From a virus (taxonomy: Duplodnaviria; Heunggongvirae; Uroviricota; Caudoviricetes): DNA of 38,652 nt. The stretch lies in IMG/VR virus record IMGVR_UViG_2671180727_000010; one strand, written 5' to 3'. Below, in pieces: positions 22,508-24,933 of the stretch (position 1 is its first letter; each line of letters starts with the position of its first letter). A program made the position numbers and the translations under genes. Below the pieces are notes generated by a model. It was not told where the DNA came from. It saw nothing but the letters and a program-made list of their open reading frames with translations, and did not search any database.

Positions 22508-22789
22508 TTAGTGGAGCAGACCGATGTCGATGGTATCCCCTGAATCATCCACACGGATCATCAGCATGGCAAAGGCGTTTAGTGGATAACTGGCGTGCCA
22601 TTCAGGGAAGCGGTCATCTCGCATGAAGTCGGCAATGTCGTAAACGCAGCCCTCAAAGTGGAAGAATCGCGTGCTTACCTGCTCGTCATAATCCACATGA
22701 TCCATTTCTTGCTGTTCTGTTTCCGGCAAGTCCAGCCATGATTCAAGGAATACATTTTGTGCTTTAGGGGTAATGGTGAAATCAGTCAT
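22508..22789 (-). CDS. Small strongly acidic protein (93 aa)
   Basis: Likely start MTDFTITPK (ATG at 22789, GAGGA 8 nt upstream); ~20 Asp/Glu versus ~5 Lys/Arg; own promoter and operator. Confidence 0.5.
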   Translation of the reverse strand: MTDFTITPKAQNVFLESWLDLPETEQQEMDHVDYDEQVSTRFFHFEGCVYDIADFMRDDRFPEWHASYPLNAFAMLMIRVDDSGDTIDIGLLH

Positions 22790-22949
22790 GAGCATATCCT
22801 CACTGCGTAAACATGTTGTTTTCTTGTTGGTGTAATTATCGCAGTGTAGATAAGGCATAAAAGAAGTTAATACAGGCTGAATACACAAGAAAGGTTCTGG
22901 AAGTTGATAGCCAGGTTTCAAACTAACCTTCGGTTATTAAAAGTCATTT

Positions 22950-22973
22950 AAGGCCACCAATGCTGGTGGCCTT
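22950..22973. repeat. Second copy of the AAGGCCACCA...TGGTGGCCTT hairpin (loop inverted)
   Basis: Reverse complement of the 22479-22502 hairpin including the loop; flanks are not inverted. Confidence 0.5.
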
Positions 22974-22978
22974 AATAA

Positions 22979-23122
22979 TTATCGCCCGATTACGCTAAGG
23001 ATCTTTTCCTCAACTGATTTGTTGTTGCGACTAAACTGCCTTGCGTATCTGATGACAGAAGAGGCGTTTCGCTTTCTGACCATCTCGGCTCTTTCCTTCA
23101 GGCGTTTCTTGAAATCGCCCAT
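22979..23122 (-). CDS. Possible small basic ORF (47 aa, MGDFKKRLKERAEMVRKRNASSVIRYARQ...)
   Basis: ATG 2 nt after the upstream stop, GGTGG 5-6 nt upstream; below the ORF-track size cut-off; hand-translated only. Confidence 0.25.
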   Translation of the reverse strand: MGDFKKRLKERAEMVRKRNASSVIRYARQFSRNNKSVEEKILSVIGR

Positions 23123-23124
23123 AT

Positions 23125-23499
23125 TTACCACCAGGCGCAGAAGGTCAGTCTGTTATTGTGAAAGTCGTGGTTCTTAATCAGATCTTCCACAAGCTCTTTC
23201 AACTGCCCCACATCATGCCAGTAACCTTCATCGTACTCCTGACTGCCGAAGAAAAAACCTTCCCGGGTAGGCAAGTACTCTTCGCAATTACTTTCGTTTA
23301 TGTGCATCAAATGAGCCTTCAGAAAACAAATGTCATTCATCGTTAATTCTAAAAGCTCACAATTTTCGACTTCACCTACGTTGCGCTCCATCCACCCAAC
23401 GAGCGCATTGAACTTACGGAAGTAAGCAACCTGCTTTCTGGATGCCTCGTTATTCAGATCGTTTTTAGGCTGCGTCTCGATATAGATATCAAGTCCCAT
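23125..23499 (-). CDS. Small acidic protein (124 aa)
   Basis: Best start is the ATG at 23499 with AAGGAA 8 nt upstream (track ORF extends to a GTG at 23541); operator at ~23558-23572. Confidence 0.5.
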   Translation of the reverse strand: MGLDIYIETQPKNDLNNEASRKQVAYFRKFNALVGWMERNVGEVENCELLELTMNDICFLKAHLMHINESNCEEYLPTREGFFFGSQEYDEGYWHDVGQLKELVEDLIKNHDFHNNRLTFCAWW

Positions 23500-23616
23500 G
23501 ATGGTTTCCTTATTAAGTTGCTTCAGTGAAATCATTTTCACAAATCAGATAAGGCAGAAAACAAATTGTTATCGGGCATAATAAAATGGCGCGGTTTACG
23601 CGCCATTTAAAGAGGA

Positions 23617-24012
23617 TTAAGCGAATACGCTTTCAGGGATTAAGGTGTCGGCAGGAATGCCAGAGGTAATGCGCAGGCCGTACTGACCAATCCAGGTAGT
23701 GTTGGTATTCAGGCTGGAGGCGAATACGGTGTTAACCATATTCATCATGGTTTCAAACACCTCTTCATCAACCTGGCGGAAGTAGTTCTCGATTTTCAGC
23801 AGCAGCGGGTCAGTTGCATCGAGAATGGACTGGTATTGAGTCGCGTACTCGCCGCCGGAGGCATCACCTTTACGCACAATCGTACTGGCCTGGACTTCGG
23901 CACCAGTTTCGGTGTTGTACGTAACAACGGTGATTTTTGCCACATTCTTACCTTCGGCGGTTTCAGAGGCATAGTAAACATCAACTGTCAGTTTTTCGCG
24001 TTTAACGGTCAT
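23617..24012 (-). CDS. Hypothetical protein (131 aa)
   Basis: ATG at 24012 with GGAGAG RBS (MTVKREKLTVDVYY...); preceded by the GTAAGTATGTACTTAC palindrome. Confidence 0.5.
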   Translation of the reverse strand: MTVKREKLTVDVYYASETAEGKNVAKITVVTYNTETGAEVQASTIVRKGDASGGEYATQYQSILDATDPLLLKIENYFRQVDEEVFETMMNMVNTVFASSLNTNTTWIGQYGLRITSGIPADTLIPESVFA

Positions 24013-24055
24013 TTCACTCTCCGTAGTGTTTTGGTTATTTTTATATTCTATGATC

Positions 24056-24071
24056 GTAAGTATGTACTTAC
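24056..24071. promoter_or_regulatory. 16-bp palindrome GTAAGTATGTACTTAC (putative operator)
   Basis: Differs from the 4239-4254 palindrome only at the central base pair. Confidence 0.45.
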
Positions 24072-24138
24072 AATACAAAAAAGCCCCGTAAGGATGGCGG
24101 GGCTGTCGTACTGTCGACTAATTACCACTTGCACATTA

Positions 24139-24450
24139 TCAGGCTATTGCCATCACTGATGCTCTCTGAATCTCTTGCTGGGCCACGCGGTTAACTTCCA
24201 TCAAAGCCAGTTCGAGCTGATGTTCCGGCCACATTCTTTGAAATGCCACCCAGCCTTTTCCACGCTGGCGACGAACATTCATTACATAACGAGTAAAGGT
24301 GTTTTTATCGAAAGACACCGCTGTTTCACGGAACAGACGAATAGAGGTTCCATTGGCAACGATGTCCAGCAAAGTTAATTGAGCAACCAGCGCAGGCTTC
24401 TCTTTTCTCTTCTGGTCTTTGTCCAGACCAAGAACCAATGATTTTTTCAT
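24139..24450 (-). CDS. Small basic protein (103 aa)
   Basis: ATG at 24450 (MKKSLVLGLDKDQKRKEK...) with GGAG upstream; operator immediately upstream of the RBS; a terminator-like hairpin (GCCCCG...CGGGGC plus T-run) follows the gene. Confidence 0.5.
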   Translation of the reverse strand: MKKSLVLGLDKDQKRKEKPALVAQLTLLDIVANGTSIRLFRETAVSFDKNTFTRYVMNVRRQRGKGWVAFQRMWPEHQLELALMEVNRVAQQEIQRASVMAIA

Positions 24451-24603
24451 CACAACTCCGTAAACAACTTGTTTTCTCAATGGCGTAAATAATACCAGTA
24501 AGAAAACGGCTACAAAGCATATTGATCAGGTGCATGAGCGATATGCAGGTTCTTCCCTGCGGCTATAGAGAAATTAAGCCAGCAATGCTGGCTTTGGTTG
24601 GGG

Positions 24604-24933
24604 TTACTCGAATACTTCAAGAAACTCCTGAACGTCCCAATGCTGGACGAGGTGAAGATAGACCTTAGAAATCACGTCATTTTCGCTATCGCATGTGAAG
24701 TAGTACTTCTGGCTGCGGTTGTATGTGTCCACACAAAATTCGCTCATATCCATAAAGTCAGCATCTTCACCCAGGTCGCTGATCATCAAAGCAGGTGCGT
24801 CATCACGAGTCATCAGCTCAAGCACCCACCGCGAATTGATCAGAGTGGAAGACCAACCTTCTAACTCATAAAACTGATCAAACTCTTTTTGAGTTAATTT
24901 CTTGATTTGGTTGATGTCGATATTTGCAAACAT
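24604..24933 (-). CDS. Small acidic protein (109 aa)
   Basis: ATG at 24933 (MFANIDINQIKK...) with AAGGA upstream; operator at ~24945-24959. Confidence 0.5.
   Translation of the reverse strand: MFANIDINQIKKLTQKEFDQFYELEGWSSTLINSRWVLELMTRDDAPALMISDLGEDADFMDMSEFCVDTYNRSQKYYFTCDSENDVISKVYLHLVQHWDVQEFLEVFE

What the first reader, a model, noticed from the sequence alone, without database searches (positions are those of the whole stretch)
22508..24933. Run of small, independently promoted, strongly acidic proteins
The products of 22508-22789, 23125-23499 and 24604-24933 (and 27442-27741) are 93-124 aa with a large excess of Asp and Glu. Each has its own -10 element, operator and RBS, and several are followed by stem-loops. 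Small acidic proteins expressed singly from early promoters are typical of DNA-mimic anti-restriction or anti-defence proteins. Function is inferred from composition and context only.
Basis: inference. Interest (0 to 1): 0.55.

Follow-up and report, generated by a model that had tools for sequence, protein, structure and literature searches.

The report
Repressor-controlled acidic gene cassettes, phage-plasmid
A phage-plasmid of E. coli carries a row of small, very acidic proteins, each with its own switchable promoter and kept silent while the element lives as a plasmid. They are plausible but unproven inhibitors of host proteins or defences.

Summary
The window is part of an SSU5/pHCM2-like phage-plasmid of E. 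coli. The ORFs at 22508-22789 (A), 23125-23499 (B), 24604-24933 (E) and 27442-27741 (H) are real, conserved genes. Their products rank 3rd, 10th, 5th and 6th of 121 element proteins for negative charge density.

Each is a self-contained unit: extended -10 promoter, 13-bp palindrome AAACAAnTTGTTT, RBS, ORF, and for A, B and E a hairpin. The palindrome is an element-wide operator. It has 18 sites in 112 kb, all intergenic, also before DnaB, nrdB, a ParA-like gene and the terminase genes. So "early promoter" is unproven. Published RNA-seq of the near-identical phage-plasmid Cyrano shows A, B, E and H near the element's background level in the lysogen.

Function is unresolved. A has a confident model with no similar solved fold and a conserved acidic patch. 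B belongs to a very widespread family that lies beside ArdA, ArdB/KlcA or ArdC in integrative and conjugative elements. Its model resembles YfbM and the DNA mimic DMP12 only moderately, and its invariant polar motifs argue for a specific site. E is an orphan. H is DUF5983. None matches Ocr or ArdA. The anti-defence reading is plausible, strongest for B, and unproven.

The parts
21821..22303 (-). [not shown]
22324..22336 (.). operator palindrome (TAACAAATTGTTT) of Z, downstream of GATAAT
22477..22504 (.). 28-bp perfect hairpin just downstream of the A stop codon; terminator-like and readable on both strands
22508..22789 (-). A: 93 aa, pI 4.11, net -15; PHROG 1845; wider family of 84 clusters; AF2 pLDDT 90.6, beta-rich, no PDB neighbour
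22809..22843 (-). A promoter-operator module: TGcGATAAT, 12 nt, AAACAACATGTTT
22948..22975 (.). second copy of the 28-bp hairpin, downstream of the B/small-ORF pair
22979..23131 (-). 47-50-aa basic ORF abutting the B stop codon (= CYRAN_109); RNA about 6 times the element background in the lysogen
23125..23499 (-). B: 124 aa, pI 4.75, net -11; PHROG 7971; broad family with motifs MGLD, YFRKxN and LPTxxGFFFGSxxYDxxY; AF2 pLDDT 94.1
23559..23571 (.). B operator, at the -35 position of a TGtGAAAAT extended -10
23617..24012 (-). C: 131 aa, pI 4.5; sigma-70-like promoter (24073-24045) with no operator; PHROG 2473
24139..24450 (-). D: 103-aa basic protein (pI 10.5) with a perfect operator at 24462-24474
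24576..24594 (-). terminator-like hairpin after E
24604..24933 (-). E: 109 aa, pI 4.21, net -14; PHROG 7645; orphan confined to Escherichia SSU5-like elements
24946..24980 (-). E promoter-operator module: TGcGATAAT, then AAACAAGTTGTTT
27220..27405 (-). G: 61 aa, pI 4.9; the weak T7 gp5.9 Pfam hit was rejected
27442..27741 (-). H: 99 aa, pI 4.30; Pfam DUF5983 C-terminal domain, E 7.5e-13, 49 bits against a cut-off of 27
27755..27818 (.). two operators 51 bp apart (27755-27767 and 27806-27818) bracketing the H promoter TGaGATAAT

Best explanation
The block 21.8-27.8 kb is a variable accessory hotspot of an SSU5-like phage-plasmid. It is built from self-contained single-gene cassettes: an extended -10 promoter, a 13-bp palindromic operator over the start of the transcript or over the -35 position, an RBS, a small ORF, and for A, B and E a hairpin.

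A dimeric regulator encoded by the element, not yet identified, is inferred to bind the palindrome. The same sites also precede replication, partition and packaging genes. The cassettes therefore stay silent while the element replicates as a plasmid and are transcribed together on infection or induction.

The acidic products A, B, E and H are inferred to be stoichiometric binders or inhibitors of host proteins. On this reading they help the incoming or induced element establish itself, by anti-defence or by neutralising DNA-binding host factors. B is the best candidate for a role linked to anti-restriction or DNA metabolism.

Shown: the genes are real and conserved; the proteins are acidic; the cassette anatomy; the operator is element-wide and conserved; RNA is low in the lysogen; B neighbours anti-restriction genes. 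Inferred: repression through the palindrome, the timing of expression, and every biochemical function.
For: - Identity of the element: 245 E. coli plasmids of about 100-125 kb match and no chromosome does. Phage structural genes lie on the same record, and phages Cyrano and SSU5 are related.
- Operator: 18 sites in the 112-kb pCTX against 0.34 expected. All are intergenic and 18-150 bp upstream of a minus-strand gene, except one in the non-coding stretch. Nine lie in this 6-kb block (p about 1e-7). SSU5, at about 70% DNA identity, has 10 sites in the homologous 12.6 kb.
- Modularity: SSU5 lacks B and E. Cyrano has a coiled-coil protein gene where F and G lie here. p20170902CC-1 carries one more 71-aa acidic ORF with its own operator.
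- Silence in the lysogen: Cyrano normalised reads in overnight LB are A 6.7, B 5.7, E 12.8 and H 7.5, against an element median of 9.8. They rise 4-40-fold in other conditions (PMC9928086).
- A family: 76% of members have pI below 5. Fourteen columns are at least 50% Asp or Glu, nine of them in residues 20-36. Of the residues conserved by identity, all but Asp30 are hydrophobic.
- H is DUF5983. That family lies downstream of cbtA in E. coli.
Against: - No homology to any characterised anti-defence protein, and no assay.
- A's fold matches nothing solved. E has no relatives outside Escherichia and no model.
- B's invariant Asp4, Arg28, Lys29, Asn31, Thr78 and the GFFFG loop look like a defined site. 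Its distant homologues sit among dUTPase, NrdD, ligase and helicase genes of large phages, which fits a DNA-metabolism role equally well.
- The operator also precedes a ParA-like gene, which should be active in the plasmid state, so a simple lysogeny-repressor model may be too simple.
- The binding protein is unknown, and the palindrome could be an activator site at promoters such as B's.
- The RNA-seq is from Cyrano, not from this exact element.
Confidence: 0.5

Rival explanations
1. One reading: A, B, E and H are DNA mimics of the Ocr/ArdA type that occupy the DNA-binding groove of type I restriction-modification or BREX enzymes.
Confidence: 0.15
2. At least B, and perhaps others, are accessory factors of the element's own DNA replication, repair or nucleotide metabolism. 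Examples would be a small enzyme, a ligand-binding module, or an inhibitor of a host DNA-repair enzyme rather than of a defence system.
For: Distant B homologues lie between NrdD/NrdG, dUTPase/DCD, DNA ligase and helicase genes in 60-165-kb phage contigs. dUTPase and ligase recur among neighbours. The family has invariant polar residues. The operator is shared with DnaB, nrdB and a CobT-like gene.
Against: The closest non-phage-plasmid homologues sit in ICE anti-restriction clusters, not in replication modules. No enzyme fold was recognised. This reading does not address A, E or H.
Confidence: 0.2
3. They are lysogenic-conversion genes (morons), superinfection-exclusion factors or toxin-antitoxin components that act while the element is a plasmid.
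For: Each has its own promoter and a downstream hairpin, as morons do. DUF5983 has been listed as a partner of the CbtA toxin.
Against: A, B, E and H are near or below the element's background in the lysogen and are not among the morons called in Cyrano. No toxin gene is adjacent. No PADLOC hit.
Confidence: 0.07
4. The acidity is an unremarkable property of small phage proteins, and the cluster has no common function.
For: Seventeen per cent of the element's small proteins have pI below 4.5. Other very acidic small ORFs lie elsewhere, and the enrichment is only p about 0.005-0.012, post hoc. The four proteins are unrelated to one another where compared: E against the A and B families.
Against: Acidity is conserved across the A and B families. 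An additional cassette gained in this hotspot is also acidic. The regulation is shared.
Confidence: 0.08

Closest known systems
Ocr (T7 gp0.3) and ArdA, the DNA-mimic anti-restriction proteins
   Same: Small, strongly acidic proteins of mobile elements. B-family genes lie next to ardA in an E. coli integrative element.
   Different: No sequence or profile similarity. A's model is a beta-rich fold with no PDB neighbour. Mimicry and binding to type I R-M enzymes are untested.
DMP12 (Neisseria DNA mimic that binds HU; PDB 3w1o) and E. coli YfbM (DUF1877; PDB 1ryl)
Dispersed-operator regulons of plasmid-like elements: the C1 operators of P1 and the 13-bp KorB operator OB of RK2 (from my own knowledge, not tested here)
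   Same: One short operator is repeated many times around the genome before unrelated operons. As in RK2, it is a 6+1+6 palindrome, and two ParB_N proteins are encoded nearby.
   Different: The sequence AAACAAnTTGTTT is unrelated to either, and no paper in the searchable library contains it. The binding protein is unknown. P1's C1 operators are asymmetric (own knowledge).
Anti-defence islands in the leading regions of conjugative plasmids
   Same: Arrays of small genes of unknown function. B-family relatives occur beside ArdA, ArdB, ArdC, RadC and DUF932.
   Different: No oriT or conjugation genes appear on the closest complete plasmid. No single-strand promoter was looked for. Control here is by a double-stranded palindromic operator. 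The block itself contains no recognised anti-defence gene.
DUF5983 (PF19419), the gene downstream of cbtA in E. coli
   Same: H matches the whole C-terminal-domain profile above the gathering score.
   Different: No cbtA or cbeA gene is adjacent here. The family's function is unknown.

Membership tests
Ocr/ArdA-type DNA-mimic anti-restriction proteins | Sequence or profile homology to ArdA (PF07275) or to Ocr | tested here: not met
   No Pfam, NCBIfam or PDB sequence match for A, B, E or H.
Ocr/ArdA-type DNA-mimic anti-restriction proteins | Very acidic small protein, pI about 4 | tested here: met
   pI 4.11-4.75 and net charge -11 to -15, within the top 10 of 121 proteins of the element.
Ocr/ArdA-type DNA-mimic anti-restriction proteins | Three-dimensional array of surface carboxylates that imitates the phosphate backbone of B-DNA | not testable with these tools
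   [not shown]
Ocr/ArdA-type DNA-mimic anti-restriction proteins | Binds and inhibits type I R-M (or BREX) enzymes | not testable with these tools
   Needs an experiment.
DMP12/YfbM-like fold (protein B) | Structural similarity to 3w1o or 1ryl | tested here: inconclusive
   [not shown]
DUF5983 (PF19419), protein H | Pfam profile match above the gathering score | tested here: met
   49 bits against a cut-off of 27, E 7.5e-13, profile positions 3-90 of 90.
PHROG families 1845 (A), 7971 (B), 7645 (E), 5003 (H) | Full-length profile match | tested here: met
   E 7.8e-59, 1.3e-87, 2.6e-75 and 1.9e-50. All four families are listed with unknown function.
Repressor-controlled dispersed-operator regulon (P1 C1 or RK2 KorB type) | One conserved operator repeated before many transcription units, far above chance | tested here: met
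   18 sites against 0.34 expected, all intergenic. Conserved in SSU5.
Repressor-controlled dispersed-operator regulon (P1 C1 or RK2 KorB type) | An identified regulator that binds the operator and represses | not testable with these tools
   Only candidates are available: a FljA-like protein, two ParB_N proteins and basic protein D. Low RNA in the lysogen is consistent but indirect.
Conjugative-plasmid leading-region anti-defence island | Lies next to oriT on a conjugative element and contains recognised anti-defence genes | tested here: not met
   The closest element is annotated with phage structural genes and no conjugation genes. No block protein hits an anti-restriction family.
Known anti-phage defence systems (PADLOC) | Profile match to a defence protein | tested here: not met
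   No hit for any of the 10 proteins of the block.

The most novel reading that the evidence does not exclude
SSU5-like phage-plasmids, common in clinical E. coli, Shigella, Klebsiella and Salmonella, carry an unrecognised establishment or anti-defence hotspot. Interchangeable acidic-protein cassettes there are plugged into an element-wide 13-bp operator circuit. The B family, found from Proteobacteria to archaea and beside ArdA, ArdB or ArdC, would be a new widespread class of anti-restriction or DNA-mimic-like inhibitor. The A family would be a new acidic inhibitor fold.
Probability: 0.25. Interest if true: 0.7.

Novelty: new member of a known kind. Interest (0 to 1): 0.45.

Why it matters
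A DefenseFinder survey found few anti-defence systems in SSU5-group phage-plasmids (bioRxiv 10.1101/2025.09.12.675607). Yet these elements spread ESBL and trimethoprim-resistance genes across Enterobacteriaceae. If the cassettes are host-protein or defence inhibitors, they would help explain that host range and add protein families to the anti-defence catalogue, B in particular. The 13-bp operator also gives a direct handle on how these elements switch between plasmid and phage life, which appears not to have been described.

Tried and rejected
- G (27220-27405) as a homologue of T7 gp5.9. The Pfam hit was 16.9 bits, below the cut-off of 24.5, and covered only residues 2-18. BLASTP against T7 gp5.9 found nothing. 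Rejected.
- E and potato multicystatin. The single-sequence hit had E 1.2e-4 with no passing stretch, and it vanished when the family profile was used. Rejected.
- E as a divergent member of the A or B family. hhalign probabilities were 0.5% and 0.1%. Rejected.
- B and YfbM by sequence profile: no signal.
- Rfam on 20.5-28.2 kb found nothing within the block. Folding the 1.5-kb non-coding stretch gave z-scores of +1.1 and -0.9, so there is no evidence of a structured RNA.
- PADLOC and NCBIfam gave no meaningful hit.
- The afdb50 fold library was unavailable.
- The search for related loci with the A-family alignment failed for lack of a conserved stretch.
- Context look-ups for distant A-family members returned only short contigs.
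- A literature search for the operator sequence found nothing. One preprint could not be opened.
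Full report
**What the window is.** The stretch 21800-27900 matches 245 E. coli plasmids of about 100-125 kb at up to 98.8% identity and matches no chromosome. The best match, pCTX (NZ_CP047004.1, 112 kb), carries repA, a ParA-like gene, tail, capsid, portal and terminase genes, DNA polymerase III alpha, a DnaB-like helicase and nrdAB. The same block occurs in the phage Cyrano (= pLF82) and, at about 70% DNA identity, in Salmonella phage SSU5. The window is therefore part of an SSU5/pHCM2-like phage-plasmid.

**Checking the observation.** All the genes discussed lie on the minus strand, and three of the four ORFs coincide with RefSeq CDSs.
- A, 22508-22789: 93 aa, pI 4.11, net charge -15.
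- B, 23125-23499: 124 aa, pI 4.75, net -11.
- E, 24604-24933: 109 aa, pI 4.21, net -14.
- H, 27442-27741: 99 aa, pI 4.30, net -11.

For H, the 99-aa form is supported by full-length PHROG and Pfam matches and by one RefSeq annotation. Among the 121 CDSs of pCTX these proteins rank 3rd, 10th, 5th and 6th for negative charge density. The clustering is real but modest: hypergeometric p=0.005 and Fisher p=0.012, both post hoc. The run is also mixed. D has pI 10.5, Z has pI 9.2, and a 47-50-aa basic ORF lies between A and B.

**Cassette anatomy.** Upstream of Z, A, D, E and H lies a repeated 55-76-nt module. Reading the aligned sequences, it consists of:
- an extended -10 element (TGcGATAAT for A and E, TGaGATAAT for H, TGgTATTAT for D); Z has GATAAT without the TGn;
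- about 12 nt rich in ACACCAAC;
- the 13-bp palindrome AAACAAnTTGTTT;
- an RBS and start codon 10-25 nt further on.

B has the palindrome at the -35 position, followed by TGtGAAAAT. H has two palindromes 51 bp apart that bracket its promoter.

A perfect 28-bp hairpin follows A, and the same hairpin follows the B/small-ORF pair. Another hairpin follows E, and hairpins with T-runs follow C and D. C has a sigma-70-like promoter without the palindrome.

**The operator is element-wide.** With one mismatch allowed, pCTX holds 18 copies against 0.34 expected from shuffles. Every copy is intergenic. All but one lie 18-150 bp upstream of a minus-strand gene. The genes served are a DUF7238 gene, a CobT-like gene, the DnaB-like helicase, a ParA-like ATPase, the presumed small terminase subunit gene (two sites), Z, A, B, D, E, H (two sites), two genes of unknown function, a TerB-family gene and nrdB. 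The remaining site lies in a non-coding stretch. Nine of the 18 fall in this 6-kb block (p about 1e-7).

SSU5 has 10 sites in the homologous 12.6 kb, again just upstream of its small genes. A metagenomic contig that carries a 42%-identical A homologue has two exact copies.

Because the site can sit downstream of the -10, at the -35, or in pairs around a promoter, it is best read as the DNA site of a dimeric regulator. That is inference. No paper in the searchable library contains the sequence. Candidate binders:
- a FljA-like protein at 18852-19454 (PF03614, E 2.5e-84);
- two ParB_N proteins at 15163-16529;
- the basic protein D;
- the CYRAN_45-type repressor, which lies outside the window.

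**Expression.** The study of E. coli LF82 (PMC9928086) gives RNA-seq values for Cyrano, which is 98% identical over 84% of the block. In overnight LB the normalised values are A (CYRAN_110) 6.7, B (108) 5.7, E (105) 12.8 and H (101) 7.5, against an element median of 9.8. None of the four is among the morons called in that study. In 1-h and 6-h cultures and inside macrophages they rise 4-40-fold, as do many other Cyrano genes.

They therefore behave like repressed lytic or establishment genes, not like lysogenic-conversion genes. The word "early" is not established, since the same operator precedes replication, partition and terminase genes.

**Protein A.** The word-indexed search found only SSU5-type relatives. 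A profile search of 1.84 billion representatives found 84 clusters of proteins about 90-100 aa long. None belongs to a Pfam family that covers the A domain, and there is no PDB relative by sequence.

Acidity is a family trait: 76% of members have pI below 5. Fourteen columns are at least 50% Asp or Glu, and nine of these lie in residues 20-36. Of the residues conserved by identity, all but Asp30 are hydrophobic. This pattern suits a binding protein with a conserved acidic face but does not identify its partner. Relatives in 81-90-kb virulent phages were found. In Pseudomonas phage PMBT3 the gene sits in a long array of small genes of unknown function.

**Protein B.** The family is broad. It comprises 78 clusters down to 28% identity and has no Pfam model. 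A scan of one genome per species found 98 loci, from Proteobacteria, Actinobacteria, Firmicutes and Bacteroidetes to Methanobacteriaceae and nanoarchaea. The family conserves MGLD at the N-terminus, YFRKxN, and LPTxxGFFFGSxxYDxxY.

Genomic context is the most informative evidence:
- In an E. coli integrative element a 37%-identical homologue lies two genes upstream of ArdA.
- In another ICE a 47%-identical homologue lies 12 bp upstream of an ArdB/KlcA-family gene, followed by MPTase-PolyVal.
- Among the four nearest ORFs in each of 36 genomic loci, the most frequent families are ArdC (ArdcN plus MPTase-PolyVal, 4 loci). Antirestrict (at least 1), DUF932 (2), dUTPase/DCD (3) and DNA ligase (2) also occur.
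- RadC lies nearby in a Macrococcoides plasmid.
- More distant homologues in 60-165-kb phage contigs sit between NrdD/NrdG, dUTPase, ligase and helicase genes.

B is thus tied to establishment, anti-restriction or DNA-metabolism modules. Its conserved polar motifs suggest a defined site rather than a generic DNA-like surface.

**Proteins E and H.** E has only nine relatives, all from Escherichia, including one full-length copy at 78% identity. It shows no link to the A or B families or to the PDB. No model could be made. H is a full-length match to the DUF5983 C-terminal domain. That family has unknown function and lies downstream of the cbtA toxin gene in E. coli. No toxin gene is adjacent here.

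**Modularity.** SSU5 keeps Z, A, C and D but lacks B and E, and it carries other small genes, one of them DUF1380, each with the operator. Cyrano has a coiled-coil protein gene where F and G lie in this window. Plasmid p20170902CC-1 has an extra 71-aa acidic ORF with its own operator just upstream of E. The block therefore behaves as a hotspot that gains and loses operator-equipped cassettes, most of them acidic.

**Verdict.** These are infection- or induction-phase accessory proteins, and anti-defence or host-factor inhibition is the most economical reading, best supported for B. No protein is a member of a known anti-defence family, DNA mimicry is untested, and a DNA-metabolism role for B is a serious rival. 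None of the four proteins matched a characterised family, so function rests on composition, context and one moderate fold match.

Noticed in passing
window 13181-13222; 36079-36093; pCTX (L003-L005) genome-wide: The palindrome AAACAAnTTGTTT is an element-wide operator. It has two sites before the presumed small terminase subunit gene and further sites before DnaB, nrdB, a CobT-like gene, a ParA-like gene and a TerB-family gene: 18 sites per 112 kb, all intergenic. The binding protein is unknown and the sequence was not found in the literature.
   Followed up: partly
window 27903-31194: Full-length metG (methionyl-tRNA synthetase, minus strand) and apbC (plus strand) are carried by this element, by close E. 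coli relatives and by Cyrano. SSU5 has neither in the homologous region. In the Cyrano lysogen apbC is expressed about 9 times above background and metG is low.
   Followed up: partly
window 24951-26498 (minus-strand sense): This 1.5-kb stretch has no RefSeq CDS. About 750 nt are extremely A+C-rich (AT skew -0.28). It contains an operator-like site at 26142-26154 and ends at a terminator-like hairpin (25517-25491), which is followed by a G-rich segment. There is no Rfam hit and no unusual folding energy. A long non-coding RNA is possible.
   Followed up: partly
window 22979-23131 (minus strand): A 47-50-aa basic ORF abuts the B stop codon (= CYRAN_109). Its RNA is about 6 times the element background in the lysogen while B is at the floor. 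An internal promoter, a hairpin-protected 3' fragment or a small RNA could explain this.
   Followed up: partly
window 18852-19454 (plus strand): A FljA-like protein (PF03614, repressor of phase-1 flagellin, E 2.5e-84) with a sub-threshold Hfq-like match at its C-terminus. It is oriented opposite to the cassette block and is a candidate regulator.
   Followed up: no
window 22416-22479 and 26032-26098: Four copies of a roughly 30-36-nt repeat containing CAGGC(T/A)A(C/T)C. Two lie between the A hairpin and the Z promoter and two in the non-coding stretch. They look like iterons; their function is unknown.
   Followed up: partly
window 31232-31621 (minus strand): An S24 (LexA/UmuD-like) peptidase with no recognisable DNA-binding domain. 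Its Cyrano counterpart, CYRAN_98, is among the most highly expressed genes of the element in the lysogen and rises further inside macrophages.
   Followed up: no
window 13614-16529 (minus strand): Two adjacent ParB_N-domain proteins and an ABC-type ATPase lie between the terminase genes and a DEAD-box helicase. In the Cyrano lysogen the ParB-like and ATPase genes are near the expression floor.
   Followed up: no
L109:3474-3737 (plasmid p20170902CC-1): An extra cassette lies upstream of E: a 71-aa acidic ORF with its own operator. It is absent from the window.
   Followed up: yes
window 22508-22789: RefSeq names many copies of protein A 'ABC transporter'. Nothing in the Pfam, NCBIfam or structure searches supports that name.
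   Followed up: yes
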